A stretch of DNA of 63,905 bases, filler included. It is 8 parts of 8 records of this genome, joined end to end, with 100 filler letters (N's around TTAATTAATTAA, not from the genome) between each part and the next. Parts side by side here need not be neighbours in the genome. Positions count along the whole stretch, not along the records: positions 13,307 to 22,815 come from SRR31156797_39295; 7 more parts are not named here. One strand, given 5' to 3'. Below the pieces are notes generated by a model. That model had not been told where the DNA came from and ran no database searches. It saw nothing but the letters and a program-made list of their open reading frames with translations. The translations under genes were made by a program, and so were the position numbers. Shown here piece by piece: positions 11,364-25,329 of this stretch; position 1 is the first letter of the stretch; each line of letters opens with the position of its first letter.

Positions 11364-12929
11364 CTACTTTAGAAGCAGCATTTTTTTGGATTCAATGAAT
11401 TCCCCGGCTTTCATACTGTAAATATAAACACCGCTGGGAACGGGATTGCCGTTGTGGTCTTTGCTGTTCCAAGTGAATTCATATGCGCCTGCATTTTGAT
11501 TTTGATATGACCATTGTTTTATCTTTCTACCCGAAAGATCATAGATCGCCAGTTCAACATCACTGATAGCTGACAGTTGGTAACTTATAGTTGTTGTTGG
11601 GTTGAAGGGGTTGGGGTGGTTTTGGTTTAACACAAAGCATATATTGGTTGGAGTAATATTACTTAAAAACGAATCTGTTTCCCAAATCAGATATATATAC
11701 CCGTTATTGATCTCGCCGTTCGTATCAATTGCCCAAATTTCATTAAAATTCCAACTGCTGTCGGAAAAGGTGGATAGCGATTTCATTTCTAAGGTTGTCT
11801 TACCCATGCCACCAGCTGATTGAGTCTGTCCTGATGTTTCGATATCCCAATAGCAATTATCAACTTGTTGGTCGTAATCATTACTACCTATTAGTCCTCC
11901 AGCGATACCCGACATTAATCCATTGTTATAACAATTCATTATACTGGAATAAAAGAACAATTCACCAATGACACCACCCGACCCTGATCCACTGATTTTA
12001 CCGGTATTATAACAATTTTTAATATTTGCATATTGTACATATCCTGCAATACCACCTGCATTTGCTGCACTAATATCACCAATATTATAACATTCGAAAA
12101 TGTTAACAATATTGTACTCATTTCTTAATTCATTCATTCCATAAATTCCGCCCCCGGCATTATCTGCTATAACCGTAGCAGTATTACCACATTGATAAAT
12201 ATTCGAACCATTATAACCAACTAAACCTCCGATAGCACTAGCCCCTTCCACTCTCCCGTTACAATAACATTTTTCAATGATATCGTCATGACTATATCCA
12301 ATCAAACCACCTACATATGTTTTTGCTTTAATTGTCGCTGAATTGATGCAATTTGTGATTTTCCCATCACAAGATATACCTGCCACTCCTCCTATATTTA
12401 CTCTATCATTAGAGGAAATATCATATACTACTGCCCTAATTGCTCCGCTAATATGGCATTTGTTTATTGTGGTGCCACCATTAAATCCTACCACCCCCCC
12501 AATAAATCCATTTCCCGTATAATTTATATCTGTTAAAAAAAGATTTTCAATAACCGCATCACTTGTGACAGAGAATAACCCCAATTTAGATTCTGTTTTT
12601 CTATTAATAAAAAGATCATATATCACATAATTTTGCCCATCATAAAAGCCGGTAAAATAGTTTTCGGCACTATATGCTATTGGTAACCATCCTTTTCCAT
12701 CAAACCAATTTTCCGTATCCGTCGCATTAATATCCGCCGTTTGAATATAATGTTTATCCCAATTGATAGAATCAGCTGAAATCCAATAGAGATTTTCTAA
12801 CGTAGCAATTTGATAAGGATTCGCTTCAGATCCATCACCGGCATCAGGTGCAACAGCTGTTTGAGCGAATATCGAAGATGCAATAATGATCAGCATGATA
12901 ATTCTTTTTAACATAAGCTTTCTCCTCAC
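11364..12929 (-). CDS. secreted GLUG-motif repeat protein with FlgD-Ig/T9SS-like C-terminal sorting domain
   Basis: Signal peptide, GDGSEANPYQI, repeated xGGxxG units, C-terminal QNHPNPFNPTTTISY...SGVYIY...KKMLLLK. Confidence 0.85.
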   Translation of the reverse strand: MRRKLMLKRIIMLIIIASSIFAQTAVAPDAGDGSEANPYQIATLENLYWISADSINWDKHYIQTADINATDTENWFDGKGWLPIAYSAENYFTGFYDGQNYVIYDLFINRKTESKLGLFSVTSDAVIENLFLTDINYTGNGFIGGVVGFNGGTTINKCHISGAIRAVVYDISSNDRVNIGGVAGISCDGKITNCINSATIKAKTYVGGLIGYSHDDIIEKCYCNGRVEGASAIGGLVGYNGSNIYQCGNTATVIADNAGGGIYGMNELRNEYNIVNIFECYNIGDISAANAGGIAGYVQYANIKNCYNTGKISGSGSGGVIGELFFYSSIMNCYNNGLMSGIAGGLIGSNDYDQQVDNCYWDIETSGQTQSAGGMGKTTLEMKSLSTFSDSSWNFNEIWAIDTNGEINNGYIYLIWETDSFLSNITPTNICFVLNQNHPNPFNPTTTISYQLSAISDVELAIYDLSGRKIKQWSYQNQNAGAYEFTWNSKDHNGNPVPSGVYIYSMKAGEFIESKKMLLLK

Positions 12930-13306
12930 CCACCCTGTGCAATGTGTAAATGTATGTAGAATAATAAACTTATATTATGAGAATAGCAAACGACTTTTAC
13001 AGATTATGGGTTATGGGTGTTGGATGATTAATTCGGGACAGATATATCTGTCCCCTTCACCGCCTTGAATAACGAACATTAGAACAATCGAAGTAATTGT
13101 CAATTGTCCTTTTTCAATTGTTAATTGTTTCCACCCCATACTCCGAACTCTCATGCTCCCATACTGTTTTTTCGATAGAAAAAACAAACATCCGCATAGC
13201 GGATGTNNNNNNNNNNNNNNNNNNNNNNNNNNNNNNNNNNNNNNNNNNNNTTAATTAATTAANNNNNNNNNNNNNNNNNNNNNNNNNNNNNNNNNNNNNN
13301 NNNNNN

Positions 13307-13336
13307 TCGCAAGTTCAAATCTTGCCGTCCCGACCA
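13307..13336 (+). tRNA. 3' fragment of a tRNA, probably tRNA-Pro
   Basis: GCAAG-TTCAAAT-CTTGC T-arm and acceptor end CGTCCCGACCA; anticodon lies off-contig, so identity is inferred from the acceptor stem. Confidence 0.75.
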
Positions 13337-13343
13337 TATATAT

Positions 13344-13383
13344 AAAAATGCTTTCAACATTCGTGTTGAAAGCATTTTTTTTT
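13344..13383 (+). terminator. intrinsic (bidirectional) terminator
   Basis: AAAAATGCTTTCAACA-TTCG-TGTTGAAAGCATTTTT followed by T run. Confidence 0.85.
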
Positions 13384-13460
13384 GAGTTGGTTACGCTGCC
13401 CGGCCCGCCTTTTCTGATTCCGGGGACAGGTAACCACCCTTGGCTGTTAATTAGATGGTA

Positions 13461-13920
13461 TTAAATGTACCAGATCCATATCAGGCCAAGTGCCTTTACC
13501 GGGATAAAAAATTTGCCAAGCCGGGGGGCATAAACGTTGATCCCTTCCAGCTGAACTTGTTCGCCGTCCGGGTCGATCACATAGTCCTTGCCTGAAGGAA
13601 ATTGAAAGCCCCTGACCATGAGGATGGGGTTCTCCGGGTCTGTCGTATCAATGGTGAAATCTCCGGCTTTCGCCGCATCGGCGTAAAGCGTTTCCGTAAT
13701 GCTCGCAAGGTCAAATCCAAATGCATCGGCAACAATGGTTGCCATTTCTGTGTTGTCATAGAGTCCGGCAGGCTTGTTGGGACCGTATGCCCACAACGGA
13801 ACGGATTATCCGCTGTGCCCGTGGGTGGTAAAACCAAGTTTGGTCAGGTTCTTGGAAATGTAGTCACAAAGCGGGTATTGAGCCTCGTAGGACTCGGAAC
13901 CGTACCTGGGTTCGGGATCT
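13461..13920 (-). pseudogene. C-terminal remnant of alkaline phosphatase
   Basis: Frame reads ...ISKNLTKLGFTTHGHSG*SVPLWAYGP..PAGLYDNTE, the AP C-terminal metal motif with in-frame TAA at 13806-13808; N-terminal part absent. Confidence 0.75.
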
Positions 13921-13922
13921 TT

Positions 13923-14720
13923 CTATAATTGACGGGTATAGTTCAGGGGGGAGTGAGCGGCTAAAAAAACAGGGGCTTCGAACCAGCAACGCCGGGGGGC
14001 GGAAGTCTGTAAATGGGGCAGGCAGTGGGGCTTCCCGGCATGAAGGATTCCGGGAAACGGGGGAATGGCCGCCACAATATCCCTGGCGGAAGCCACCCGG
14101 TAAATGTTGATCTCTTTGGTTGCATTTACAAAATCTGCATCGCCGATCCTGGGCGAACCAAAGGTATAGACCGCCGCCGGTTTTTTTAAGGTGGCCGCGA
14201 GTACGGCCAGGGCACCCCCCAGGCTGTGTCCGGTATAATAAAGAGGACCGGATACGGCATCGAGCTTGTGGTGAATCTTTTCCCAGGCTTCCAGAAGGAG
14301 CAGCTTGAATCCCTTGTGAACGTTTCCTCCCGGTGGCCACGGGGAGAGGCCGGTGTTCAAATTGAATAGCCAGTTGGCGATTCGACCCTGGGTTCCCCGG
14401 AAAACCAGGGCTGAAAACCCTCGTTCCGGTCCGGGCGGGGGTCCCATGATGGCGCACTGAATATGCCTGCCGTTGTAGAACCAGCGTTCCTCCAGTCCTG
14501 TTTTACCCAGAAAATGATTCCGAGCCGTCGTCTGGTATTCCTGGTTGATTTTATCGGGCCCCTTCAGGTAAATCAACCGTGACAGTTCGGACAACCACCA
14601 TGCATTTCCTTGACTGAATCCCGGTTCTTCCGTTTCAAAAGGTTTCGGTGTGCTTGCCTGGAAAAAATCAGCAGCTTTCCCGGGATTGAAAATGGGTCCC
14701 CATGCGTAACTATAAGGCAT
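13923..14720 (-). CDS. class 3 lipase (alpha/beta hydrolase)
   Basis: VFRGT, VHKGF, TGHSLGGALA, YTFGSPRIGD, DIV, C-terminal H. Confidence 0.9.
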   Translation of the reverse strand: MPYSYAWGPIFNPGKAADFFQASTPKPFETEEPGFSQGNAWWLSELSRLIYLKGPDKINQEYQTTARNHFLGKTGLEERWFYNGRHIQCAIMGPPPGPERGFSALVFRGTQGRIANWLFNLNTGLSPWPPGGNVHKGFKLLLLEAWEKIHHKLDAVSGPLYYTGHSLGGALAVLAATLKKPAAVYTFGSPRIGDADFVNATKEINIYRVASARDIVAAIPPFPGILHAGKPHCLPHLQTSAPRRCWFEAPVFLAAHSPLNYTRQL

Positions 14721-14977
14721 TTTGAACTCTGGCTTTTTTTATGTTGAATGGCCGACAGCGGAAAAAGTTCCGCTTAAATGGGATAACTGTATTGTGGAAA
14801 TGCCCGGGGTGTCAAGGACGTATTAGGATTTTGTTAAATGTTTGCATTCTGCGGATGGGATGGCGCAAGGGGCATCTCCTTTGAGACCTGCAGGCAGGTG
14901 GTCCGGAAAGGGATACCCCGTGGGTATATTTGATATTGACCTTGTACGTGGTTACCGTCCAACGATCGGAAGCGTGT

Positions 14978-16027
14978 TTATATTTTTTCCCTGACCACAT
15001 TAAAAACGATCATGGCGTCCGTAACCGAGCTTTTTCCCGAATGGAGAAAGGCTGTGATCCAGACAAGCTCAAGAAAAAGAATGACGCCGGGTTCCCAGAG
15101 GGCCGTCAGGCCAAGGTTCAGGTCCGGCATTCCCGTTGTTACCGAAAAAACCGGTAGAATGAGGCTGGAATAAACGATGGCCCCAAGGGCCATGACCTGG
15201 TACATGGAGAACTTCATGGTTCCCCTGAAATCCGCCCGGAAAAATTCGGAAATCACCCGCCATGTCTGGGTGACCCAGAGGGTCTCCATGAATGCCGCCC
15301 CAAACTTTCCTTCCAGGAAGAGCCAGGTGCCCATGAGGCCGGAAATGGTATAGATGACAGCCGTGATCATCTGTATGGGGAGCAGTTTTTTTCCGTCCAG
15401 GCCTGCGGCGTAGGCGGCTTTTTTGGTTTTTCCGTGAAAAACCAGATTGAACCTGGCAAAGATTCTCCGGGCCAGGGGGCCGCACTGGGACAGGGGCTTG
15501 CCGTAGCAGCAGCCGAAACTGATACAGGCAAGCCGTCCCAGGGCCTCGCCAAAGGTATAGGCAATGGAAACGGCCGCAAGCATCACAGGCACCGGCAGTG
15601 AAAAACCATTGGCCTTTCCAAGGGTCATGTTCACAAGAACCATGAGCCAGGGGGCGCTGATGACACCAACAAAGACGGCGCCGCCCACGGTCAGGGTGCC
15701 CTGTTTTTTTTCCACCAGCCGGGCCATGATTCTGGAGGCGGGAATGGTGACGGATAAAAGAAAAACGGTCAGTACCACCAGGGGGGAAAGCCCGATGCCC
15801 GCAGCCTTTGCCAGAACGATCAGGAGAGCCGTGCCAAAGGTATAGGCATTGGCGGACAAGAGGCCGTACCAGGTCAGGTTCAGTCCTTTCCATTGACCAT
15901 TGGCACTTTTTTCAAGGGGCAGGGTGGCCAGCATTTGCCTTTTTTCCCCGGGCAGGGTTCGGTATCCCCAGGTGAGCGCCAAGGCCATGAAAACGGCCAG
16001 TCCCAGAACAAAAAACAGTGGATTCAT
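14978..16027 (-). CDS. Lgt-like (prolipoprotein diacylglyceryl transferase family) membrane protein
   Basis: GRLACISFGCCYG and RVISEFFRAD match Lgt-family motifs; multiple TMs; divergent from housekeeping Lgt. Confidence 0.75.
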   Translation of the reverse strand: MNPLFFVLGLAVFMALALTWGYRTLPGEKRQMLATLPLEKSANGQWKGLNLTWYGLLSANAYTFGTALLIVLAKAAGIGLSPLVVLTVFLLSVTIPASRIMARLVEKKQGTLTVGGAVFVGVISAPWLMVLVNMTLGKANGFSLPVPVMLAAVSIAYTFGEALGRLACISFGCCYGKPLSQCGPLARRIFARFNLVFHGKTKKAAYAAGLDGKKLLPIQMITAVIYTISGLMGTWLFLEGKFGAAFMETLWVTQTWRVISEFFRADFRGTMKFSMYQVMALGAIVYSSLILPVFSVTTGMPDLNLGLTALWEPGVILFLELVWITAFLHSGKSSVTDAMIVFNVVREKI

Positions 16028-16028
16028 T

Positions 16029-17060
16029 TTAAAATTCTCCTTTCTCGTAATTTTCGCTTAACGGTACCCCCGTGCCAATGACGGATCGAACCTTGACGGC
16101 TGTTTCCACAAGCTGGCTGCCAAATCCTTTTGAAAAGCGGCTGATTGCATCGGTTCTTGACATGTTCTCCACAATATCCCGGGAGAATTTCATTCTGCCC
16201 CTTTGAAAGATCAGAATGGTGGTGGAACTGCCCGGCCTGAAAAGACTTTTGGGCCGACCCTTCTCAATAAACAATCCGGGTTCCACCGGTACCGGCGATT
16301 CGTACCCGGTCCGGCTGTAACATTGGACGATTTGCCCGATCATCAGGGCCACCACCTCCACCATGGCCACAAGACCCATCCGGGATCCGCCGGGCACGTC
16401 CGTATTGATTATGGTCACCACCCGCCTGTTCCTGGAGAAGGGCGTCACCTCCCTGACCACGGCAGCTGGATTGCAGGAGTGAAAGCTGCCGTCAATGGCA
16501 TAGACGTCTTCGACAATGCCGGACACGGGCGCATGGTTGTAATGGTATTTTTCCGGCGTCAGCCTGAACACCGCAACGTCTCCATGGAAAAAGGCCTTTT
16601 GCCAGGAGGGCTTGTCCGGTCCCATAAGGTCTGCGTAGTCAAAGAATTTTTCCTTGATGAACAGGGGATTGGCGTCGGAAAAGGAGCCGATCAGCATGGA
16701 TGCATCGGCCGGGGATACCACGGCCGATGCATCCCCGGCCATGGGCCTTACTTCCCAGTACCTGATCTGCCGCTCAAATATTTTCCTGTAGGAATCGAGA
16801 TCCTCCACCCTGCCGGCCACTTCGTCAAGGTCGATGCCCCGGGATTGGAGGAATTTTCTTGTCTCTGCCGGACCCCGCCGAAAGGGGATGTCATAGGTTG
16901 CGGCACCCAGAAGGGCGGATATCCTTTTTGAGATCAGCAGCTTAAAAAGGAATCCGGCATTCTCCCGGACATCCGAATAGATCAGGTTCACCACCCGGTC
17001 GGCAAAGAGTTGTTCCGTCTTGACCCTGGAGGTCTCCCGTTCAATGTATTGGTGTTTCAT
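16029..17060 (-). CDS. psd: phosphatidylserine decarboxylase family proenzyme
   Basis: F.R.IR...RP, VSPAD, FRLTPEKYHYNHAPV, PGSST autocleavage motif. Confidence 0.85.
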   Translation of the reverse strand: MKHQYIERETSRVKTEQLFADRVVNLIYSDVRENAGFLFKLLISKRISALLGAATYDIPFRRGPAETRKFLQSRGIDLDEVAGRVEDLDSYRKIFERQIRYWEVRPMAGDASAVVSPADASMLIGSFSDANPLFIKEKFFDYADLMGPDKPSWQKAFFHGDVAVFRLTPEKYHYNHAPVSGIVEDVYAIDGSFHSCNPAAVVREVTPFSRNRRVVTIINTDVPGGSRMGLVAMVEVVALMIGQIVQCYSRTGYESPVPVEPGLFIEKGRPKSLFRPGSSTTILIFQRGRMKFSRDIVENMSRTDAISRFSKGFGSQLVETAVKVRSVIGTGVPLSENYEKGEF

Positions 17061-17089
17061 CCCATTGCCTTTTTTGTTTTTACTGACAT

Positions 17090-19498
17090 TTATTGAATCG
17101 ACGTTTCGAAAACATTGACTTCCCTGTTCACCACAAGGATGATGAGATAGATCAGTTTTTTCAATCGTTCCATGGCAAGGGTGTTGTCATGGAACTCCCT
17201 GCGCACGGTTTTGAGGAATTCAAACAGGTCCTCGTCTCCAAGTATTTTGTCCAGGGCGTCACCATCGGCGGCATCCCTGTATCGGGCCCATATGTGCATC
17301 GTTTCACAGGCCCGTTCAAGCTGGTCAAATCCCTGGCGGATATGGGCCTTTCGCAGGGTGTCCCCGTAATAGGCCTCTGCCCGTTCATTGAACTCCGTGC
17401 CTTGAACTGCCATGGGATTCGTTTTTTTTCCGCCCAGGATTCCCGATGTCAGCCTGCCCCAGGCTCCATGGGCCCCGGGATCGTTGATTCGGTTTACAAG
17501 GTCGTCAATCACAGGCTTCATCCTGAACGCTTCTATCAGGGAAGCACCGTCTTTTCTTAACAGGCGGATCAGCCCCTTCTGATATTCCTTGACATAGACC
17601 CTTGTATATCCGGGATATCGCCGGCTGGCCCTTGTCCGTCTGACATTTTGCAGTATCTTTGCCAGAAAAAGGTTCCGGGTACGGGTTTTTACAAAAAAGG
17701 TGGGCAGATCGATGGCGCTGTCGAAAAATATCTGCCTGCGCTCGCTTTCAATCTCGGGAGAGTCCGGAATCATCCGGTGTTCCACCTTCTTTGAGAAAAT
17801 ATATTTCTGGGCAAGGCAGGTGATAAGCAATTGAAGATCGGCGGCGCCGCCCATGTCCCTGGTGATATCCTCAAATATGGAAAAGTAGCGATGTTCAAAC
17901 CCGGAATACCCCATTTGGCATTGTTTCCTAAGCCGGATCAGCTGATACAGGGGCATTCGCTCGTCGAAAATTCCCATTTCCGCCAGATCTTTTTTCAGCA
18001 TGGCTTCGCCCTTGAGGGAGCCGTCCAGGGCCGGACTCTGGAAGGTGCTCTTGACCGATACAAAATAATCGATCAGCCGGATATCCGGGATGAAATCTCC
18101 TTTCAGTCCAAGGCAGCGGCTGATCAGGCGGTCCAGCCATACGGGCCCGAAGGGGGTCAGGGGCTGTCCCATTATCTTCAGGTCCGCCTTTTTCTTCCAG
18201 CGCCGCCAGATCATTCGAAGGTGGGCATCTTCCAGTTGATGGGGCAGAAACCCCAGTAGGCGTTCCGGGTGGAAATCCTCAAAATTTAGGCGATGGGGAG
18301 AGGCGCTGAAGGTTGTGGAGAACAGGGGGAGGAAATGTTCGCAAATCTTGATGGCCAGATCCCCCACCTGTTTTTCATCGGTTTCCGTCAACCCCGAATG
18401 CTTGTCCGCAAGTAATCGGGAAAGTTTGATACTGCCCATGCTGATGTGGGTACCGTTGTTGGCAAGGCTGATGTTGGACAGGTTTGGCATCACCACCAGG
18501 TTGGAGGTGATGATGCCCGCCTCCTTCAGCCGGGTCACCGCATTGATATGACTCCGGGAGAGGACCTTGTGACAGAGGTTCATGTAGGCGTTTTTTTCCT
18601 CTCCCCGATCCCAGCCGGAGAGGCAGGGGCTCATGAACAACTCCCGGTAAAAGGCATCTGAAATACAATCGTTGAGCTGCCGCTGGCCCATTGGAGGCGT
18701 GGCGGAGAAAAACACCTTTACCCTTTGTCCGTTTTCCTTGAGCAGGAATTCCTCTTCGGCGTAGCGCACCAGTGCCTGGGTCAGGAGAAACCGGATCAAG
18801 GTCTCGCCGGCCAGTTTTTCTCCAAAACCGGCGTTTGAATTTGATTTTACCGGGTGAAAGGAGAAAAGCTCCGGGGAGGAATTATCATTGGAAAAATGAT
18901 TCATCATCTGTTTCCCACGGCTTTTCACATGGGGGGGAAGATTCTTTTCCGCCCCAACGGCCTGGGCCAGGGAGAGCTTGAGCAGATAACTCACCGGAAT
19001 CCTGATATGGGGTTCCCCCGCCGTTTTAAATACAAACCAGCTGGCATCCTTGCGGTAGCCCGATGCGGGATTTGACTTATCCGCCTTTAAATCATGGTTC
19101 AGCACATGATTGGCAAACGGGTTCAGGGTCGCCCTTGGAAACCTGACCCAGGAATTTTCCCATCTCCTGACCTCCTTTTCCCCGAGAAAGTTCTCAAGGG
19201 CGATCACCCGTTCCTCCGGTGTATCGCCGGATTTCGCCTGCTTGACCAGGTTCTTGTAATAGTTGGACGCCTCGATGGATATTGGCAGGTCAACATTTTC
19301 CCGTCGCCCTGTCACCACGGCCTGGAATTCGTTTTCCACTCCTGCCGTGGCATCCCCTGCACAAAAGGGGAGGGAGTGGATAAAGGCATCTGTTGATCGG
19401 GTATCGATCCCTATAATATCGCTAATCTGATCCAGGCTCCGGAGGGGCAAAGCGTCCCTGTCGTGGGGAAATGTTTGTTTTTTCTCAATTGCAGTCAT
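17090..19498 (-). CDS. 802-aa hypothetical protein, putative glutamate-cysteine-ligase/carboxylate-amine ligase fold
   Basis: TAGVENEFQ, NNGTHISMG, GFEHRY resemble the GxExE, GxHxxxG and ExR motifs of the GS/GCS fold; the fold call is an inference. Confidence 0.6.
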   Translation of the reverse strand: MTAIEKKQTFPHDRDALPLRSLDQISDIIGIDTRSTDAFIHSLPFCAGDATAGVENEFQAVVTGRRENVDLPISIEASNYYKNLVKQAKSGDTPEERVIALENFLGEKEVRRWENSWVRFPRATLNPFANHVLNHDLKADKSNPASGYRKDASWFVFKTAGEPHIRIPVSYLLKLSLAQAVGAEKNLPPHVKSRGKQMMNHFSNDNSSPELFSFHPVKSNSNAGFGEKLAGETLIRFLLTQALVRYAEEEFLLKENGQRVKVFFSATPPMGQRQLNDCISDAFYRELFMSPCLSGWDRGEEKNAYMNLCHKVLSRSHINAVTRLKEAGIITSNLVVMPNLSNISLANNGTHISMGSIKLSRLLADKHSGLTETDEKQVGDLAIKICEHFLPLFSTTFSASPHRLNFEDFHPERLLGFLPHQLEDAHLRMIWRRWKKKADLKIMGQPLTPFGPVWLDRLISRCLGLKGDFIPDIRLIDYFVSVKSTFQSPALDGSLKGEAMLKKDLAEMGIFDERMPLYQLIRLRKQCQMGYSGFEHRYFSIFEDITRDMGGAADLQLLITCLAQKYIFSKKVEHRMIPDSPEIESERRQIFFDSAIDLPTFFVKTRTRNLFLAKILQNVRRTRASRRYPGYTRVYVKEYQKGLIRLLRKDGASLIEAFRMKPVIDDLVNRINDPGAHGAWGRLTSGILGGKKTNPMAVQGTEFNERAEAYYGDTLRKAHIRQGFDQLERACETMHIWARYRDAADGDALDKILGDEDLFEFLKTVRREFHDNTLAMERLKKLIYLIILVVNREVNVFETSIQ

Positions 19499-19756
19499 GT
19501 ATCACCTTTCTATTGAAATCACGTTTCGATGTCCCTGTATCGCAGGTAAATATTTTGATGCTGTTACGGGACGGCTAAAGTTCTGTGTGATCTGTCACTG
19601 GCCCAAATGGAAAGGGCGCAGGTCTGGTTGCTCCGGGAGGTTTGTTTTTCCGATTCAAACACGATCTTAATTTTATCCTCACGCCGGGCGGCTATGCTGA
19701 ATTCGCTATCGAGGGAGGACATAACCATGAATTTGAATAAATGAAGGAGGTAACCA

Positions 19757-22204
19757 ATGATCTGTGCAGATCTTCATGTGCACTCCATGGCGTCCAAGCG
19801 GCCGTCCGAATGGTTTTTGCAAAAGGTGGGCGCCAGGGAGTCTTACACCGATGTCGAGACGATATATGAAAAGGCGAAGGAGCAGGGGATGTCCTTTGTC
19901 ACGGTTTCGGACCATAATACCATCGAGGGGGCGCTCAAGCTGGTGGCGGCCCATCCCGACGATACCTTTTTAAGTGTGGAGGTGACCACCTACTTCCCCG
20001 AGGACAACTGCAAGGTCCACATCCTGGTCTTTGACCTCACCCCGGATCAGTTCAAGGAGATCGATGGGATCAGGAATAATATTTATCTTCTTCGGGACTA
20101 CCTTTTAAGGGAGAACCTGGCCTATTCCGTGGCCCATGCCACCTACAGCGTCAACAAGAGACTTACCCTGGCGGTCCTGGAGAAGCTGATGGTGCTGTTT
20201 GACGTGTTTGAAGGGATCAACGGCGCCAGGAACAGCCTCCACAACGAGGTGTGGCAGACCGTGCTCCACAGCCTTACCCCGGAGCGCATGGAGGCCCTCG
20301 CGGAGCGGTACGGGATCCGGCCCGCAAGCAGTGATCCCTGGGTCAAAGGGATTACCGGCGGGTCAGACGACCATGCGGGGCTTTTTATCGGCCAGACCTT
20401 TACCACGGCCCCCTGGGGCGCCACCAAGGCGGATTTCATCGACAGCATCCGGGAGAAGCGCACCTTCAGTTCGGGCAGAAGCAACGACTACAAGACCCTG
20501 GCCTTCTCAATTTACAAGATCTTTTGTGATTATTCCGGCACACGGCGTCTGGACGATCCCCACAGTATTCGGGAACTTGTGGGCAGTGTCCTGTTTTCCG
20601 ACAGCGACCGCAAGGTAAAAAACTGGATCATCCGCCAGAAAATCAAGCGGGGCAAAGCCCCCAGGGACCAGATCTATTTCCGGTTTTTCGACGACGTGCT
20701 CACCTGGTCCCGGAATCGGACCATGGATGTGGAGGCGCGTATGGAGAGCATCTACCGGAACATGGCCACCCTGTTTGACGGGTTCACCACCATGGTTCTG
20801 GAGTCCATGATCAAGGATTTCTGCAACGGGGATGTGGGGCGGCTTTTCAAGAACATCAGCGCCTCCCTTCCCATGATGTTCATTTCGGTTCCCTTCTTTT
20901 CCTCCCTGAAGCATCTGTTCCTTGACCGGGAGATTCTCAAGGAACTGAAACAGGAGTATGTCGGTGACAGCGACGATGAACCGGACCGGGTCCTCTGGTT
21001 CACCGACACCATCAATGACCTGAATGGCGTTTCCGTGAGTCTTTCCAACTACATGCAAAGCTCCCTTGACCGGAATTCCAACACTACCTTTGTTGTCTGC
21101 CTTCCGGAAGAACAGGCCCGGGATCTGCTGTCCAATACCCTGAACCTGCCCTCTATTTTTTCCCACAGGCCCGATTTTTATGCTAACTACACCCTGCACA
21201 TCCCCTCCCTGCTCAATTCGGTTGAATCGATCTACAAACGGAAACCGGAACGGATCATCATATCAACCCCCGGCCCGGTGGGGCTTCTGGGACTTCTCAT
21301 GTCAAAGCTCATGGGGGTTCCCGCCACCGCGATTTTTCACACCGATTTTGCCGCCCAGGCAGGGTATCTGTTTGACGACGAAGCCGTTGGGGAGATCATC
21401 AATGGGTACATCCGGTGGTTTTACGCTTCTGCCGATGAGATCAGGGTTCCCACCAATGCATATATCCGCATCCTCGAATCCCAGGGGTATGATCCCGGGA
21501 AGATGCGGTTGCTCAAGCGCGGCATCGATATCCGGCCGCCACGATTTTCCGACACGGACAGAGATGCATTCCTGGCGCTGCACAAGATTCCCCGGGGGTT
21601 TACCCTGCTGTGGGCGGGCAGGGTCAGCAGGGACAAGAACATCCATTTCCTGGTGGATATTTACAGGCAGGTGGCAGAGGACAGGGAGGATGTCAACCTT
21701 GTGATCTGCGGGGACGGTCCCGATCTTGGCGAGTTGAAAAAAAAGCTTGAACCCGGCGACCGGGTGGTGTTCACCGGTCGCATCCCCCATGGTATGCTGC
21801 TTGATTTTTATGCCTGCTCGGATCTGTTCGTGTTTCCAAGCACCACCGACACCTTTGGAATGGTGGTGTTAGAGGCCCAGGCCTGCGGTCTTCCGGCCAT
21901 GGTCTCCAATGTGGGCGGTCCCCAGGAGATTGTCGTGAAAAACAGGACCGGCTTTGTGCGTCCGGTCACGGCCCCGGACGCCTGGAGCCGCCAGATCCTG
22001 GAACTGGTTCAGCTGAAACATAACAATCCCGAAGCCTATGCCCGCATGGGCAGGAGCGCACGGGACCATATCCGGGTCAATTTTTCCTGGGATGCGGCCC
22101 TGGCCGATATCCTCGGGTGCGAGCCCTCTATCGTCCCCCGCCCGGCGGCTCCCTCCCCGTTGCCGGCCAACAGTCAAAGCGATACTCCCCGGGTCGTGGC
22201 ATAA
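19757..22204 (+). CDS. PHP-domain / GT4 glycosyltransferase fusion
   Basis: N-term DLHVHS, SDHN, E, HIL, AH, GGSDDHA; C-term NGVS, GRVSRDKN, FPSTTDTFGMVVLEAQACGLP. Confidence 0.9.
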   Translation: MICADLHVHSMASKRPSEWFLQKVGARESYTDVETIYEKAKEQGMSFVTVSDHNTIEGALKLVAAHPDDTFLSVEVTTYFPEDNCKVHILVFDLTPDQFKEIDGIRNNIYLLRDYLLRENLAYSVAHATYSVNKRLTLAVLEKLMVLFDVFEGINGARNSLHNEVWQTVLHSLTPERMEALAERYGIRPASSDPWVKGITGGSDDHAGLFIGQTFTTAPWGATKADFIDSIREKRTFSSGRSNDYKTLAFSIYKIFCDYSGTRRLDDPHSIRELVGSVLFSDSDRKVKNWIIRQKIKRGKAPRDQIYFRFFDDVLTWSRNRTMDVEARMESIYRNMATLFDGFTTMVLESMIKDFCNGDVGRLFKNISASLPMMFISVPFFSSLKHLFLDREILKELKQEYVGDSDDEPDRVLWFTDTINDLNGVSVSLSNYMQSSLDRNSNTTFVVCLPEEQARDLLSNTLNLPSIFSHRPDFYANYTLHIPSLLNSVESIYKRKPERIIISTPGPVGLLGLLMSKLMGVPATAIFHTDFAAQAGYLFDDEAVGEIINGYIRWFYASADEIRVPTNAYIRILESQGYDPGKMRLLKRGIDIRPPRFSDTDRDAFLALHKIPRGFTLLWAGRVSRDKNIHFLVDIYRQVAEDREDVNLVICGDGPDLGELKKKLEPGDRVVFTGRIPHGMLLDFYACSDLFVFPSTTDTFGMVVLEAQACGLPAMVSNVGGPQEIVVKNRTGFVRPVTAPDAWSRQILELVQLKHNNPEAYARMGRSARDHIRVNFSWDAALADILGCEPSIVPRPAAPSPLPANSQSDTPRVVA

Positions 22205-22228
22205 ACGGCCTTGATAAAATGCCGGTTG

Positions 22229-22768
22229 TCAACTCCGGTCCCCGAATTTATGGATGATTTTTATCGACCTTGCAACGATTAAAATCAATAACAGGGTACC
22301 GATTATTCGGATATTCTTTTTTAAAAATCCGGTCGAATATTGCCAGGCTTTATTGTTTTTGGGTAGCAAAAAAGATTTGTCATCCGTAGCCGCTATGAGT
22401 AATGCCGACACTGCAATAACATGGGCCCCCAATCGCAAATTATAAGACCCGTAAATAAACCATGCGATCAGGGCGGGTATGATTAACAATGAAAATATGC
22501 CGCGCAGTTTTTTTTCTCTGAAAACAAGATATCCGGATGAGAGCAGTATCAAAGTGATGACCGGTTTTTTAATGAGATATTTATTGACCGAAAATAAGAG
22601 TTGGTCAAGATAACTTCTACCTTGCATTGATGCATTGATAACGCCTTCGTTATTGTGAAACGCCGATCCCTCACTTACAATCCAGAGAATCGTGGTGAAA
22701 ATTAAAACGAATGCCATGAGTGATATCGGAATGGGATGATGCTTGATTCTGTTCGAACAAAGAAGCAA
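22229..22768 (-). CDS. AT-rich membrane protein fragment (possibly pseudogene)
   Basis: Multiple TMs; sharp drop in GC relative to the adjacent gene; no clean start before the contig edge. Confidence 0.4.
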   Translation of the reverse strand: MLLCSNRIKHHPIPISLMAFVLIFTTILWIVSEGSAFHNNEGVINASMQGRSYLDQLLFSVNKYLIKKPVITLILLSSGYLVFREKKLRGIFSLLIIPALIAWFIYGSYNLRLGAHVIAVSALLIAATDDKSFLLPKNNKAWQYSTGFLKKNIRIIGTLLLILIVARSIKIIHKFGDRS

Positions 22769-22983
22769 TTTAAGACAGCGCTAAACCCAGAACAAGCGTG
22801 TTTTGAATAAGAAAANNNNNNNNNNNNNNNNNNNNNNNNNNNNNNNNNNNNNNNNNNNNTTAATTAATTAANNNNNNNNNNNNNNNNNNNNNNNNNNNNN
22901 NNNNNNNNNNNNNNNCAGGAGCGGATTAAAGAGGTATTCAGCACACCCTCTCACTTAGTGATTCGCCTAAAGGTGCTACCTTT

Positions 22984-23022: not shown

Positions 23023-23772
23023 ATGAAGAAATTATTTCCTGTTGTACTGTTAGTTCTGATGATGGCGGGCTGTGTAGACAAGCCTATATCAGTGGCGATG
23101 GGCATAGCTGACCCCTACAAGGTTAATACTATCCTGAAAGAGAACGCTGCTATAGCTACTGACTCTTTCAGAAAGCTTATACATCCGGCATACGGGTACA
23201 CATATATGCTTCTGGCTATAGAGCTGAACACTAACGCATCTTCACTTATAATAGATAAGACCAAAGAGAAGATAGTCGGTTACGACTCAAAGGTTTTAAA
23301 GAAGCTCGAGTCCGGAAGTTTTTTCTTCGTTATACCTCCTAGGATTTCCAACGGTGAGACATTTGTATTTGATGAGGAGATGGGCAGAATGCTTAGAAAC
23401 TACCTCACAATGGCTAAATACGGCATTCCGGTTTCTAACCCGATGGATGCAGAGTATATAGTTGTTACTAATATCAGAGAATCCCTGAGCAAAGGGTACG
23501 GACTTAATTATTCCGAGGTAGCGCTCAGTATTGTAGATAAGTTTGATACACCGATATATCTGGCTAGCTTAAGGGTTGAGAGTAAATCAGATAAAAATTT
23601 CTGGTACTACGCAACTAAAAAAGCGAAGCCTGTAAAGAAACTCACAATGAAGGGTATGACCCGCATCATGGCTGAGGGGCTTCCTGAAGTTCATGGGCGT
23701 TCACACGATCTTGTGAGCTACACTAAAAATTTAATCAATAAGAATAAAGAAAATAAGGAGCAGGTGCAGTGA
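23023..23772 (+). CDS. hypothetical lipoprotein, first gene of flagellar operon
   Basis: Lipobox MAGC; overlaps flgF start. Confidence 0.75.
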   Translation: MKKLFPVVLLVLMMAGCVDKPISVAMGIADPYKVNTILKENAAIATDSFRKLIHPAYGYTYMLLAIELNTNASSLIIDKTKEKIVGYDSKVLKKLESGSFFFVIPPRISNGETFVFDEEMGRMLRNYLTMAKYGIPVSNPMDAEYIVVTNIRESLSKGYGLNYSEVALSIVDKFDTPIYLASLRVESKSDKNFWYYATKKAKPVKKLTMKGMTRIMAEGLPEVHGRSHDLVSYTKNLINKNKENKEQVQ

Positions 23773-24527
23773 TTAACGGACTTTACACAGCTACAGCCGG
23801 AATGGCTATGCAGCAAAAAAGGGTAGATATTATCGCTTCTAACCTTGCTAACATAAATACGACAGGGCACAAGAAAGAAGTTCCTGTTTTTTCACAGTAT
23901 CTTGCTAATCCAACTGAGACACCTAACGATTTCATCAGAGACAGTGAGTATAACAAAATGATTAACTCGAAGGTTAGGCTGCACGATGTTAAGACAAGCT
24001 TTGAGATGGGCTATCTGAAAGAGACAGGTAAATATACTGATATGGCTCTAGGTAACCCGAACGCTTTCTTCGCTGTGGATACTCCTTACGGTGTCAGGTT
24101 TACAAGGGACGGTGCTTTTACTATTAATGAGCAGAACGAGCTTACAACTATGGACGGTTTCAATGTCGTTAGTAATGTTGATTCTCTCCAGCCAGTAAGG
24201 CTTCAGGAAGGTTCAATTATCACAGAAGAAGGGGACATCCTTGTGGATGGCGCACCTGTTGGCTCAATAGATATAGTTGAGTTTGAAGATGTCGGAGACC
24301 TGCAGAAGCAGGGGCAGAACCTTTATGTTGCAATAGATACACTTCCTGAACCTTCAGAACAGCCGCTTCTTTACACTGGCTATCTGGAAGGGAGTAACGT
24401 GAATCCGATCGAAGAGATGGTAAAAATGATAGAGGCCTCAAGGGGCTTTGAAAACTATTCAAAGATAATACAAACTATTCAGGAAATGGATAGCAAGGCA
24501 GCCGGCGAAGTCGGCAAAGTAAGCTAA
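23769..24527 (+). CDS. flgF: flagellar basal-body rod protein FlgF
   Basis: [32 protein letters not shown]. Confidence 0.85.
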
Positions 24528-24538
24528 GGAGGGGTATA

Positions 24539-25327: not shown

Positions 25328-25329
25328 TA

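What the first reader, a model, noticed from the sequence alone, without database searches (positions are those of the whole stretch)
13923..22204. Putative undescribed lipid/lipoconjugate pathway: GCS-fold ligase + PSD + Lgt-like + lipase + PHP-GT4
Seen: a co-oriented run of an 802-aa unknown protein, a PSD-family pyruvoyl decarboxylase (29-nt gap), an Lgt-like membrane transferase (1-nt gap) and a class 3 lipase, with a divergent PHP-phosphoesterase/GT4 fusion. Established: PSD decarboxylates lipid head groups, Lgt transfers diacylglyceryl from phospholipid, and GT4 enzymes make glycolipids. Inference: an ATP-dependent amide ligase, a decarboxylase and a diacylglyceryl transferase together could build a new amino-acid or peptide head-group lipid, or lipidate a small molecule, with the lipase and PHP-GT remodelling it. 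I know of no characterised pathway with this composition.
Basis: partly seen in the sequence, partly recalled or inferred. Interest (0 to 1): 0.78.

Follow-up and report, generated by a model that had tools for sequence, protein, structure and literature searches.

The report
Candidate operon for phosphorus-free cysteine lipid
Three tightly linked genes, kept together in hundreds of mostly anaerobic bacteria and apparently switched on by phosphate shortage, most likely build a phosphorus-free, sulfur- and nitrogen-containing membrane lipid that chemists described in 2024 without naming any genes.

Summary
The five genes lie at the stated coordinates, all on one 9.5-kb contig (13307-22815) of a window that is eight contigs joined by N-linkers.

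- **802-aa protein:** it has no Pfam, NCBIfam or PDB sequence match. Its confident model has the glutamate-cysteine-ligase/YbdK fold (Z 18-20).
- **Conservation:** ligase, PSD-like and Lgt-like genes are collinear in 65 of 70 related loci with room to see it. In 401 Desulfobacterales genomes the Lgt-like gene occurs only where the ligase does (94/7/0/300).
- **Not housekeeping:** 5 of 5 genomes checked also hold an ordinary psd and lgt.
- **New here:** the Lgt paralogue has an extra helix at each end and a reversed positive-inside pattern, so its active site probably faces the cytoplasm.
- **Regulation:** an 11-bp-spaced direct repeat upstream of the ligase also lies upstream of pstS-pstC in related genomes.

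Best reading (about 0.5): the trio makes S-(diradylglyceryl)-N-(4-aminobutanoyl)cysteine. Glu + Cys - H2O - CO2 = C7H14N2O3S, which matches the head group of the 'butyramide cysteine' lipids of Desulfatibacillum alkenivorans (Ding 2024).

The lipase (3/80 loci) and PHP-GT4 fusion (17/80) are accessories. I could not test whether D. alkenivorans carries the trio. This scan reached the same reading on other genomes at least ten times; none of my searches found it in print.

The parts
17090..19498 (-). 802-aa carboxylate-amine ligase of the glutamate-cysteine-ligase/YbdK/PafA fold; a family without a Pfam or NCBIfam model
   Evidence: No Pfam, NCBIfam or PDB sequence match. AlphaFold model pLDDT 92.0, pTM 0.93. 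VIA-align Z 19.8 to GshF 3ln7_B (rmsd 4.6, 403 aligned), 18.5 to YbdK 1r8g/1tt4, 18.4 to E. coli GshA 2d32, 16.3 to PafA and 11.1 to glutamine synthetase; the next unrelated row has Z 3.7. Family size: 2780 proteins at E<=1e-3 among 8000 scored candidates, and 690 cluster representatives.
16029..17060 (-). 343-aa PSD-family pyruvoyl decarboxylase paralogue
   Evidence: PF02666 E 2.2e-37. The best NCBIfam equivalog, NF001941, scores 144.8 bits against a cut-off of 371. D119, H173, H176 and G277-S278-S279 are invariant in 31 orthologues. A second, shorter PSD gene lies elsewhere in 5 of 5 genomes.
14978..16027 (-). 349-aa Lgt-family membrane transferase paralogue with nine helices and a predicted inverted topology
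   Evidence: PF01790 E 8.7e-10, 38.8 bits. Model pLDDT 87.5. Foldseek's only significant hit is E. coli Lgt 5azb, E 4.3e-4. VIA Z 13.2, rmsd 4.0, 232 aligned, model residues 26-295; the next row has Z 5.3. K+R counts are 20.0 on the motif-bearing side and 2.5 on the other, n=30. A canonical Lgt (221-268 bits) lies elsewhere in 5 of 5 genomes.
19562..19581 (+). Direct-repeat box TGTTAC-N5-GGCTAA, half-sites 11 bp apart, 64-83 nt upstream of the ligase start and on the opposite strand; a candidate Pho box shared by the divergent promoters
   Evidence: Found de novo by Gibbs sampling of 72 upstream regions, with a strand bias of 35 to 4 among sites scoring above 12. The same box, in the same orientation and at a similar distance, lies upstream of pstS (TIGR00975, 384 bits)-pstC in related genomes.
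19757..22204 (+). 815-aa fusion of a probable PHP-type phosphoesterase domain (residues 1 to about 260), a linker region and a GT4 glycosyltransferase (about 430-790); an accessory, not a core part
   Evidence: GT4 domain. PHP: sub-threshold hits only, invariant D5 H7 H9 D52 H53 E75 H88 H127 D204 D205 H206 in 13 orthologues, and an Atlas look-alike cluster scoring 0.97 in which 14% of members carry PHP_C. Within 10 kb of the trio in 17 of 80 loci. In 75 of 101 ligase-positive and 54 of 300 ligase-negative genomes.
13923..14720 (-). 265-aa class 3 lipase with a GHSLG serine motif; an accessory, probably with its own promoter
   Evidence: PF01764 E 1.3e-20. The translation shows GHSLGG. A homologue lies near the trio in 3 of 80 loci. 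A promoter-like site lies at 14815-14786(-), but such sites are not more frequent than in shuffles.

Best explanation
The three co-transcribed genes at 14978-19498(-) encode a pathway that turns a phospholipid into a phosphorus-free, thioether-linked aminolipid when phosphate is scarce.

Proposed steps. All three are inferred and their order is open.
1. The Lgt paralogue has its catalytic face turned to the cytoplasm. It transfers the diradylglyceryl group of phosphatidylglycerol to the thiol of free cysteine or gamma-glutamylcysteine. This releases glycerol phosphate, whose phosphate can be salvaged.
2. The 802-aa glutamate-cysteine-ligase-fold enzyme uses ATP to join the gamma-carboxyl of glutamate to the cysteine amine.
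3. The PSD paralogue, a pyruvoyl enzyme, removes the alpha-carboxyl of the glutamyl residue. That residue is a free alpha-amino-acid head on a lipid, as serine is in phosphatidylserine.

The product would be S-(diradylglyceryl)-N-(4-aminobutanoyl)cysteine, with head group C7H14N2O3S. I equate this with the 'N-butyramide cysteine glycerol' (BACys) lipids that replace phospholipids in phosphate-starved Desulfatibacillum alkenivorans.

The PHP-GT4 fusion on the other side of the shared promoter region probably makes a glycolipid in the same response. The lipase is a loosely attached helper.

Shown here: the folds, the family memberships, the conservation and co-occurrence, the paralogy, the charge pattern and the shared upstream box. 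Inferred: substrates, order of steps, product and regulator.
For: - **Unit.** The trio is collinear in 65 of 70 loci with at least 2.3 kb downstream. The script counted 63; L005 and L008 have overlapping gene ends.
- **Co-occurrence.** In 401 Desulfobacterales genomes: 94 both, 7 ligase only (4 of the 7 have only fragmentary ligase matches), 0 Lgt-like only, 300 neither.
- **Enzymes.** The ligase fold gives Z 18-20 to GshF, GshA and YbdK, with E55/E57 nearly invariant and H351/E387 invariant. The PSD paralogue keeps an invariant GSS site and Asp/His residues. The Lgt paralogue keeps Y54, the GR...G signature and EF(F/L)RxD(F/Y)RG, as aligned with canonical Lgts.
- **Not housekeeping.** 5 of 5 genomes have another PSD and a canonical Lgt.
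- **Same side of the membrane.** The Lgt-like family has K+R 20.0 on the side bearing the catalytic motifs and 2.5 on the other (n=30). Its short loops TM1-2, TM3-4 and TM5-6 have 0.3, 0.4 and 0.5 K+R, against 2.3, 2.8 and 1.5 in six canonical Lgts of the same genomes. An extra helix lies outside the Lgt core at each end. E. coli Lgt has a periplasmic head and active site (PMC4728403, passages read). The ligase and PSD have hydrophilic N-termini.
- **Phosphate link.** PHP-GT4, Zn-phospholipase C or alkaline phosphatase lie within 10 kb in 28 of 80 loci. pstS- or pstC-like genes lie nearby in 7 of 80. The upstream box recurs upstream of pstS-pstC in 3 of 4 pstS regions at 11 bits or more, and in the fourth at 8.1 bits in the same place. 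About 0.03 hits are expected from 0.026 hits per kb. Two of those sites came from an unbiased genome-wide pattern scan.
- **Chemistry.** Glu + Cys - H2O - CO2 = C7H14N2O3S. The BACys head-group fragment is C7H13O3N2S+, m/z 205.064, calculated 205.0641. BACys and glucuronosyl lipids appear only at low phosphate, and I saw no genes named for them (PMC11181052: abstract, sections 5 and 13, and passages).
Against: - No experiment links any of these genes to any lipid.
- I could not test whether D. alkenivorans has the trio. It is not among the 120 listed hits of either protein search, which proves nothing either way. Only 101 of 401 sampled Desulfobacterales genomes carry the ligase.
- The published BACys structure is tentative and rests on MS2 shown in supplements that I could not open. 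Where the glycerol is attached (S, O or carboxyl) is unknown to me, and gamma-glutamyl-cysteamine is an isomer of the same formula.
- The ligase is as close in fold to YbdK, PafA and Dop as to true Glu-Cys ligases, so its substrates are not defined. I did not map its conserved acidic residues onto a solved active site.
- The inverted topology is a charge-rule inference, not a measurement.
- The box-to-PhoB assignment is inferred. Genome-wide, the box pattern is no more frequent than its reversed control (13 against 15 hits). The four best TIGR02136 (PstS-family) genes, one per genome in four of the five genomes, lack it at 11 bits or more. Only 1 of 8 unlinked PHP-GT4 genes has a site of 8 bits or more upstream.
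- The co-occurrence counts are not corrected for shared ancestry.
Confidence: 0.5

Rival explanations
1. The trio is a lipid head-group pathway, but its product is not BACys. One example is the isomeric route: S-diacylglyceryl-cysteine is decarboxylated by the PSD paralogue to an S-linked analogue of phosphatidylethanolamine, and glutamate or another acid is then ligated to it. Another is a different thiol- or hydroxyl-linked amino-acid lipid not yet seen by lipidomics.
For: The conservation, paralogy, fold and phosphate-context evidence is the same as for the best explanation. S-diacylglyceryl-cysteine mimics phosphatidylserine more closely than a gamma-glutamyl lipid does. The ligase fold does not fix its substrates. 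Presence of the trio in D. alkenivorans is untested.
Against: It ignores the exact match of the elemental formula to a lipid found in the same bacterial order under the condition the gene context points to. The authors split the head group into a C4 amide and cysteine, which fits 4-aminobutanoyl-cysteine better than glutamyl-cysteamine.
Confidence: 0.27
2. The trio modifies a protein or peptide. The Lgt paralogue lipidates a cysteine of a cytoplasm-facing protein, and the PafA/Dop-like ligase attaches or trims a peptide tag.
For: The ligase model matches PafA and Dop at Z 16, and Lgt's known acceptors are proteins (PMC4728403). A small unannotated ORF of about 141 aa follows the Lgt-like gene in 12 of 80 loci.
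Against: No small protein is conserved across the loci: that ORF is in 12 of 80 and is absent from this contig. A pyruvoyl decarboxylase needs a free alpha-amino acid, which is unusual on a protein. GCL and YbdK score higher than PafA. The neighbours are phosphate-salvage and lipid enzymes.
Confidence: 0.07
3. The genes are neighbours without a common pathway: an extra psd and lgt for ordinary phospholipid and lipoprotein synthesis, beside an unrelated ligase.
For: Both have Pfam hits above the gathering scores.
Against: Both fall far below the NCBIfam equivalog cut-offs (144.8 against 371; 19.8 against 334). Ordinary copies exist elsewhere in 5 of 5 genomes. The gene order is kept across several phyla. 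The Lgt-like gene was found in none of the 300 sampled genomes without the ligase. Its predicted topology is wrong for exported prolipoproteins.
Confidence: 0.03

Closest known systems
BACys ('N-butyramide cysteine glycerol') lipids of Desulfatibacillum alkenivorans PF2803 (Ding et al. 2024, PNAS, PMC11181052)
   Same: A phosphorus-free lipid containing sulfur and nitrogen, made only at low phosphate by a member of the Desulfobacterales. Its head group C7H13O3N2S+ equals Glu + Cys - H2O - CO2 minus one H. It appears together with a glycolipid (glucuronosyl).
   Different: It is a chemical description only, and I saw no genes named in what I read. The structure is tentative. I could not see the supplements or test whether that organism has the trio.
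Glutamate-cysteine ligases and YbdK/GCS2 carboxylate-amine ligases (PDB 3ln7, 3ln6, 1v4g, 2d32, 1r8g, 1tt4), with PafA/Dop as more distant kin
   Same: The fold matches (Z 18-20; 16 for PafA/Dop), and conserved acidic and His residues sit on the central sheet.
   Different: There is no detectable sequence similarity by HMMER, even at E<=10. The protein is 802 aa against 350-520, with only about 400 residues aligned, so roughly half is insertions and a C-terminal helical domain. Its substrates are unknown.
Lgt, phosphatidylglycerol:prolipoprotein diacylglyceryl transferase (E. coli, PDB 5azb; PF01790)
   Same: The core fold (Z 13.2) and the signature GR...G, WYG and EFxRxD motifs are shared. 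The proposed chemistry, diacylglyceryl transfer to a thiol, is the same.
   Different: It has nine helices instead of seven, with an extra one at each end. The charge pattern is reversed, so the active site is predicted to face the cytoplasm. It scores 36-42 bits against 221-268 for the canonical copies in the same genomes. The proposed acceptor is a small molecule rather than a prolipoprotein.
Phosphatidylserine decarboxylase (PF02666); PsiD tryptophan decarboxylase is recalled as a family member acting on a non-lipid substrate
   Same: Pyruvoyl proenzyme features are kept: the GSS site and the Asp/His residues.
   Different: It is a paralogue beside the ordinary short Psd, far below the equivalog cut-offs. 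The proposed substrate is a gamma-glutamyl (or cysteinyl) lipid, not phosphatidylserine.
Pho-regulated phospholipid replacement systems: PlcP + Agt glycolipids, BtaAB betaine lipids, OlsBA/OlsF ornithine lipids (recalled; listed in PMC11181052 section 13)
   Same: The physiological logic is the same: phosphate-starvation context, phospholipase C, phosphatase and GT4 neighbours, and a box shared with the pstS promoter.
   Different: None of those systems uses a GCL-fold ligase, a PSD paralogue or an Lgt paralogue. None makes a thioether-linked lipid.

Membership tests
Carboxylate-amine ligase superfamily (GCL / YbdK-GCS2 / PafA-Dop / glutamine synthetase fold) | The characteristic fold over the catalytic domain | tested here: met
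   Z 19.8, 19.0, 18.5 and 18.4 to 3ln7_B, 3ln6, 1r8g/1tt4 and 2d32. 334-420 residues aligned at rmsd 3.8-4.6. The next unrelated row has Z 3.7. In the Foldseek list, ranks 1-23 are all of this superfamily; the first unrelated entry is at rank 25.
Carboxylate-amine ligase superfamily (GCL / YbdK-GCS2 / PafA-Dop / glutamine synthetase fold) | Sequence membership in a curated family model (such as GCS2 or GshA) | tested here: not met
   No Pfam family at E<=10, no NCBIfam family at E<=0.01, and no PDB chain at E<=10 by sequence or by a 37-sequence profile.
Carboxylate-amine ligase superfamily (GCL / YbdK-GCS2 / PafA-Dop / glutamine synthetase fold) | Metal- and ATP-binding acidic, His and Arg residues on the central sheet | tested here: inconclusive
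   E55 and E57 are nearly invariant on strand 50-64. H351, E387, R474, R524 and R537 are invariant in 37 sequences. I obtained no residue-level superposition, so equating these with the GshA or PafA sites rests on recall.
Carboxylate-amine ligase superfamily (GCL / YbdK-GCS2 / PafA-Dop / glutamine synthetase fold) | ATP-dependent amide-bond formation | not testable with these tools
   Needs an enzyme assay.
Phosphatidylserine decarboxylase family (PF02666) | Pfam model above its gathering score | tested here: met
   129.1 bits against 22.
Phosphatidylserine decarboxylase family (PF02666) | Self-cleavage Gly-Ser site and Asp/His residues for pyruvoyl formation (motif recalled) | tested here: met
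   G277-S278-S279, D119, H173 and H176 are invariant in 31 orthologues.
Phosphatidylserine decarboxylase family (PF02666) | Equivalog to a bona fide Psd (NCBIfam cut-off) | tested here: not met
   The best match, NF001941, scores 144.8 bits against 371. A separate short Psd-type gene exists in 5 of 5 genomes.
Lgt (PF01790) | Pfam model above its gathering score, and the Lgt fold | tested here: met
   38.8 bits against 24.9. 5azb gives Z 13.2 with 232 of 284 residues aligned and Foldseek E 4.3e-4, prob 1.00.
Lgt (PF01790) | Signature motif with the essential Arg (E. coli R143) and Gly (G154), the TM1 Tyr, and the TM6 Arg/Glu cluster | tested here: met
   G164-R165...G176, Y54, E261, R264, D266 and R268 are invariant in 30 orthologues and align with the canonical motifs. 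Cys stands where E. coli has N146 and E151, but three of the six canonical Lgts aligned (L111, L112, L113) have the same substitutions. Residue roles are taken from PMC4728403.
Lgt (PF01790) | Seven helices with the head domain and active site facing the periplasm | tested here: not met
   Nine helices, with residues 1-25 and 296-349 outside the Lgt core. K+R is 20.0 on the head/motif side and 2.5 on the other, the reverse of the canonical Lgts. This is a prediction by the positive-inside rule, not a measurement.
Lgt (PF01790) | Equivalog to prolipoprotein diacylglyceryl transferase | tested here: not met
   NF000778 scores 19.8 bits against 334. Canonical copies at 221-268 bits lie elsewhere in 5 of 5 genomes.
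BACys lipid biosynthesis (proposed; no defined family) | Genes present in the organism that makes BACys | not testable with these tools
   D. alkenivorans is not among the 120 listed hits, out of 2780 and 2963 matches.
BACys lipid biosynthesis (proposed; no defined family) | Induction by phosphate limitation | tested here: inconclusive
   A box is shared with pstS-pstC promoters and the neighbours are phosphate-salvage genes. There are no expression data; no RNA run was listed.
BACys lipid biosynthesis (proposed; no defined family) | Predicted product matches the head-group composition | tested here: met
   C7H14N2O3S against the fragment C7H13O3N2S+ at m/z 205.064. Isomers are not distinguished.
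PHP phosphoesterase domain (PF02811) | Pfam model above its gathering score | tested here: not met
   15.6 bits against 26.4. Four of 13 orthologues match at E<=0.05, best 6.1e-4. A profile of the 13 sequences finds no PDB chain at E<=1.
PHP phosphoesterase domain (PF02811) | HxH ... H ... E ... H ... H ... DxH metal ligands (pattern recalled) | tested here: inconclusive
   D5, H7, H9, D52, H53, E75, H88, H127, D204, D205 and H206 are invariant in 13 sequences.
GT4 glycosyltransferase | Pfam GT1/GT4 models above their gathering scores | tested here: met
   PF00534 119.6 bits, PF13692 107.4 bits, PF13439 39.4 bits. All NCBIfam equivalogs fall below their cut-offs, so the sugar and the acceptor are undefined.
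Class 3 lipase (PF01764) | Pfam model above its gathering score, and a GxSxG nucleophile | tested here: met
   74.2 bits against 22. GHSLG is present in the translation.

The most novel reading that the evidence does not exclude
An Lgt paralogue has been turned upside-down in the membrane by an extra helix at each end, so that it alkylates a free cytosolic thiol instead of an exported protein. Together with a cryptic glutamate-cysteine-ligase-fold enzyme and a PSD paralogue, it converts phosphatidylglycerol directly into a thioether-linked 4-aminobutanoyl-cysteine lipid and frees glycerol phosphate for salvage. This would be the complete, previously unassigned pathway for the BACys lipids. It would be present in more than 500 species of Desulfobacterota, anammox Planctomycetota and Nitrospinota, which would make sulfur-for-phosphorus membrane substitution a widespread trait of anoxic sediments.
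Probability: 0.45. Interest if true: 0.85.

Novelty: new variant of a known kind. Interest (0 to 1): 0.76.

Why it matters
Replacing phospholipids with phosphorus-free lipids is a major microbial response to phosphate scarcity. It also underlies the lipid biomarkers used in oceanography and geochemistry. For anaerobes, the 2024 discovery of sulfur-containing 'butyramide cysteine' lipids left the genes unknown.

A three-gene candidate makes that question directly testable by expression in E. coli or by a knockout. It would let the trait be mapped in metagenomes of sediments, aquifers and anammox reactors.

It would also give functions to three things:
- a large protein family that is labelled 'hypothetical' or left unnamed in every listed hit of two searches;
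- a PSD paralogue;
- an Lgt paralogue acting on a small molecule in a predicted inverted orientation. None of my searches turned up an Lgt-family enzyme described as doing this.

Tried and rejected
- **Whole genome:** none is held for the window, so copy numbers were checked in five relatives instead.
- **Sequence searches with the 802-aa protein or its profile against the PDB:** no match at E<=10. The Lgt-like protein found nothing at E<=10. The Lgt-like profile found only a chance ArcB fragment at E 0.059, not Lgt.
- **D. alkenivorans:** not among the 120 listed hits of the search with the window's protein, nor of a profile of 13 non-Desulfobacteraceae members. This is no evidence either way. 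Word look-ups of earlier notes did not settle it.
- **'GCCYG' cysteines:** I first thought these marked a changed active site. I rejected that because three of the six canonical Lgts aligned (L111, L112, L113) carry the same motif.
- **PSD::Lgt-like fusion:** 692-710-aa open frames in two genomes suggested a fusion. Rejected: the long frame is an out-of-frame open stretch across the PSD gene.
- **Horizontally acquired GC island:** not supportable. The left edge is a contig junction. The linked flanks are only 154 and 586 bp. In 36 relatives the trio is on average 2.2 GC points above its flanks, range -5.6 to +8.2.
- **Pho-like box upstream of unlinked PHP-GT4 genes:** 1 of 8 has a site of 8 bits or more.
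- **Promoter and terminator consensus scans of the contig:** not above shuffles, 10 against 6.9 and 16 against 13.8.
- **Sequencing runs:** no RNA holder is listed. The one holder may be the source sample. No reads were laid.
- **Literature:** the terms 'butyramide cysteine'/'BACys' occur in 19 papers, of which only Ding 2024 is relevant. No paper holds 4 of the 5 terms psd, Lgt, glutamate-cysteine ligase, phosphate starvation and operon. The searches found no paper naming genes for such a lipid.
- **Protein complex prediction:** none was run, because I do not claim that the proteins bind each other.

Full report
**What is there.** The window is not one molecule. Seven N44-TTAATTAATTAA-N44 linkers join eight contigs. 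The finding lies wholly inside the piece 13307-22815 (9,509 bp, 52.7% GC), so the flagellar genes and the C5-epimerase/GLUG genes on the neighbouring pieces are not linked context.

| Gene | Coordinates | Length | Gap to the next |
|---|---|---|---|
| unknown protein | 17090-19498(-) | 802 aa | 29 nt |
| PSD-like | 16029-17060(-) | 343 aa | 1 nt |
| Lgt-like | 14978-16027(-) | 349 aa | 257 nt |
| lipase | 13923-14720(-) | 265 aa | - |
| PHP-GT4 (divergent) | 19757-22204(+) | 815 aa | 258 nt from the 802-aa gene |

Pfam gives PS_Dcarbxylase (E 2.2e-37), LGT (8.7e-10; 38.8 bits against 24.9), Lipase_3 (1.3e-20) and GT4 models (1.3e-34). It gives nothing for the 802-aa protein. NCBIfam agrees, and places the PSD and Lgt homologues far below the equivalog cut-offs: 144.8 against 371, and 19.8 against 334.

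**The 802-aa protein.** It belongs to a large family whose listed hits are all labelled 'hypothetical' or left unnamed: 2780 proteins at E<=1e-3 among the 8000 candidates scored, with a best hit of 88% identity, and 690 representatives of 50% clusters. A model built on 37 diverse members is very confident (pLDDT 92.0, pTM 0.93). In the Foldseek list, ranks 1-23 are all glutamate-cysteine ligases (GshF, GshA), YbdK, PafA or Dop. VIA-align gives:
- Z 19.8 to 3ln7_B (rmsd 4.6, 403 aligned);
- Z 18.5 to YbdK (334-338 of about 353 aligned);
- Z 18.4 to E. coli GshA;
- Z 16.3 to PafA and 16.1 to Dop;
- Z 11.1 to glutamine synthetase;
- Z 3.7 for the next unrelated row.

About half of the protein consists of insertions and a C-terminal helical domain. 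Residues E55 and E57 (nearly invariant) and H351, E387 and several Arg (invariant) are conserved. I equate them with the metal and ATP sites of the superfamily only from memory.

**The trio is a unit.** The best 80 loci come from Desulfobacterales, Syntrophobacterales, Syntrophales, Geobacterales, Desulfuromonadales, a Brocadia and Nitrospinota. Of these 80 loci, 70 have at least 2.3 kb downstream of the ligase gene. In 65 of the 70, ligase, PSD-like and Lgt-like genes follow each other on one strand. The script counted 63, and L005 and L008 have overlapping gene ends. The five exceptions are:
- L056: the PSD/Lgt-like pair lies 5.5 kb downstream.
- L080: a PHP-GT4 gene sits between PSD and Lgt-like.
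- L014: the pair is inverted, 8.5 kb away.
- L054: the Lgt-like gene is about 9 kb away.
- L006: neither gene lies within 10 kb.

In 401 sampled genomes of the order, 101 have the ligase and 94 the Lgt-like gene at E<=1e-40. The sets overlap as 94 both, 7 ligase only, 0 Lgt-like only and 300 neither. Four of the seven ligase-only genomes have only fragmentary ligase matches. These counts are not corrected for relatedness.

Each of five genomes (Desulfobacter vibrioformis, Desulfospira joergensenii, Citrifermentans bremense, Geomesophilobacter sediminis and a Brocadia MAG) also has a short ordinary PSD gene and a canonical Lgt scoring 221-268 bits, against 36-42 bits for the Lgt-like gene.

**The two paralogues look active.** In 31 PSD-like orthologues, the Gly-Ser-Ser site (G277-S279) and D119, H173 and H176 are invariant. 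These are the features I recall as needed for self-cleavage to the pyruvoyl enzyme. The Lgt-like model (pLDDT 87.5) has E. coli Lgt as its only significant Foldseek hit (E 4.3e-4). VIA gives Z 13.2 (rmsd 4.0, 232 of 284 aligned, model residues 26-295), with the next row at 5.3. Aligned with six canonical Lgts from the same genomes, it keeps the TM1 WYG, the GR...G signature and the EFxRxDxRG cluster. The Cys residues in 'GCCYG' are also present in three of those canonical Lgts (L111, L112, L113), so they mean nothing special.

The Lgt-like protein has nine helices: one before the arm-1 hairpin and one after the last Lgt helix, both outside the aligned core. Across 30 orthologues, the loops that carry the catalytic motifs hold on average 20.0 Lys+Arg (range 15-26). 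These are the hairpin, the TM2-3 loop, the head-equivalent 172-217, the TM6-7 loop and the C-terminus. The opposite loops hold 2.5.
- The head-equivalent has 7.1 K+R, against 1.8 in the canonical Lgts.
- The short loops TM1-2, TM3-4 and TM5-6 have 0.3, 0.4 and 0.5, against 2.3, 2.8 and 1.5.

In E. coli Lgt the head (E151-P197) and the active site face the periplasm, the periplasmic side is negative and the cytoplasmic side positive (PMC4728403, passages). By the positive-inside rule the paralogue is therefore inverted, with its active site at the cytoplasmic face. That is where free cysteine, glutamate and ATP are found, and where the ligase and the PSD-like enzyme, both with hydrophilic N-termini, would be expected. 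This argues for a small cytosolic thiol as acceptor rather than an exported prolipoprotein.

**Phosphate context.** Within 10 kb of the trio, 28 of 80 loci (19 of the 52 loci of 15 kb or more) carry at least one of three genes: the PHP-GT4 fusion (17), a Zn-dependent phospholipase C directly downstream on the same strand (9), or an alkaline phosphatase (8). pstS- or pstC-like genes occur in 7 of 80. On this contig the stretch 13461-13922(-) is the 3' remnant of an alkaline phosphatase gene with an in-frame TAA. The evidence is weak but consistent: PF00245 E 4.8e-4 on profile positions 377-420 of 423, and 30% identity to the C-terminus of a neighbour phosphatase from another locus.

Gibbs sampling of 72 upstream regions found a direct repeat, TGTTA(C/T)-N5-(G)TG(C/T)TAA, with half-sites 11 bp apart. 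It lies almost always on the strand opposite to the gene: 35 against 4 among sites scoring above 12. In the Desulfobacteraceae-type loci it sits 65-130 nt upstream. In the window it is at 19562-19581, 64-83 nt from the ligase start and inside the promoter region shared with PHP-GT4.

A genome-wide scan of five related genomes for this pattern gave 13 hits, no more than the reversed control (15). Four of the 13 are the trio's own sites. Two of the other nine lie about 80-115 nt upstream of a gene that is PstS by the TIGR00975 equivalog (384 bits, cut-off 205) and is followed by PstC. With a matrix built from the trio sites alone:
- 3 of 4 such pstS upstream regions score 11 bits or more, and the fourth scores 8.1 bits, all in the same place and orientation;
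- the background is 0.026 hits per kb, so about 0.03 hits are expected in 1.2 kb;
- the four best TIGR02136 (PstS-family) genes, one per genome in four of the five genomes, have no such site;
- only 1 of 8 unlinked PHP-GT4 genes has one.

I read the box as a binding site of a PhoB-type regulator. The regulator itself is inferred.

**The product.** Ding et al. (PMC11181052; I read the abstract, sections 5 and 13, and passages; supplements are closed) grew Desulfatibacillum alkenivorans at 0.5-1.5 uM phosphate. They saw PE, PG and cardiolipin almost completely replaced by glucuronosyl glycerolipids and by a new class of sulfur-containing aminolipids. [quoted passage not shown] I saw no genes named in what I read.

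The archetypal activities of the three enzymes predict exactly this composition: join Glu to Cys, remove an alpha-carboxyl from a lipid-borne amino acid, and put a diacylglyceryl group on a Cys thiol. Glu + Cys - H2O - CO2 = C7H14N2O3S, one H more than the fragment, whose calculated m/z is 205.0641. 4-Aminobutanoyl-cysteine is a 'butyramide plus cysteine'. The isomer gamma-glutamyl-cysteamine, from decarboxylating S-diacylglyceryl-cysteine first, has the same formula and cannot be excluded here. The Lgt-type reaction would also free glycerol phosphate from PG, which suits a phosphate-salvage response.

None of my searches found a paper naming genes for such a lipid.

**The accessories of this window.** The PHP-GT4 fusion is associated with the trio but separable from it. 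It is present in 75 of 101 ligase-positive and 54 of 300 ligase-negative genomes (odds ratio 13, uncorrected). Its GT4 domain is below every NCBIfam equivalog cut-off; the best are GlcNAc-PG synthase, a glycogen-synthase subfamily, BshA and MshA. Its PHP assignment is sub-threshold, though supported by invariant His/Asp/Glu residues. D. alkenivorans makes a glycolipid together with BACys, and PlcP+Agt pairs do the same job in other bacteria (recalled). A phosphoesterase-glycosyltransferase that makes a glycolipid is therefore a reasonable guess (about 0.35), but it is untested. The class 3 lipase has its GHSLG serine, and a homologue lies near the trio in only 3 of 80 loci.

**Limits.**
- Nothing here is experimental.
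- I could not find out whether D. alkenivorans carries the trio.
- The fold does not fix the ligase's substrates.
- The topology is a prediction.
- No RNA data were available.

**Relation to earlier notes of this scan.** After I had reached this reading, look-ups showed that other agents had reached the same trio and the same BACys reading on at least ten other genomes. That is not independent evidence. I added the inverted-topology argument, the co-occurrence tables and the analysis of the accessories.

Noticed in passing
window 6501-6600, 13207-13306, 22816-22915, 37627-37726, 46603-46702, 52711-52810, 58777-58876: Seven N44-TTAATTAATTAA-N44 linkers show that the window is eight contigs stitched together. 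GC ranges from 38.5% to 54.0% between pieces, so the bin may mix genomes.
   Followed up: yes
window 13307-13379: The contig begins with what looks like the 3' end of a tRNA gene (T-arm, acceptor stem and CCA, about 13307-13337), followed by a 16-bp hairpin terminator at 13344-13379. ARAGORN finds no tRNA because the gene is cut by the contig end.
   Followed up: partly
window 13461-13922 (-): A 3' remnant of an alkaline phosphatase gene with an in-frame TAA. The upstream part is replaced by the lipase gene. PF00245 E 4.8e-4 on the last 44 profile positions, and BLASTP E 0.004 to the C-terminus of a phosphatase next to the trio in L049.
   Followed up: partly
window 22229-22768 (-): A 179-aa hydrophobic ORF in the low-GC (39%) right end of the contig. 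It has no Pfam family and only a weak heimdallarchaeosortase-like match, E 0.0033.
   Followed up: no
window 8399-12929 (another contig piece): Three tandem paralogues with a D-glucuronyl C5-epimerase C-terminal domain lie beside a GLUG-repeat protein with a FlgD-Ig/T9SS-type C-terminal sorting domain.
   Followed up: no
window 23769-31230 (another contig piece): A flagellar basal-body cluster: flgF/G-like rods, flgA, flgH, flgI and flgK.
   Followed up: no
L001:14651-15076 and 11 other loci: A conserved ORF of about 141 aa with no Pfam family directly follows the Lgt-like gene in 12 of 80 loci, on the same strand in 11 of 12. It is absent from this contig and could be a lineage-specific fourth component.
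   Followed up: no
33 of 80 related loci, e.g. L039:9090-10373: GGDEF-domain proteins recur near the trio: 56 proteins in 33 loci. In 10 loci there is an EAL-CBS-GGDEF protein. This may only reflect how common these families are in such genomes.
   Followed up: no
L111, L112, L113 (canonical lgt of three related genomes): The canonical Lgt enzymes of these Desulfobacterota and of the Brocadia MAG carry GR(I/F)GC...GCC(Y/F)GK where E. coli has GRLGNFINGELWG. The E. coli residues N146 and E151, reported as important, are Cys in these canonical enzymes.
   Followed up: partly
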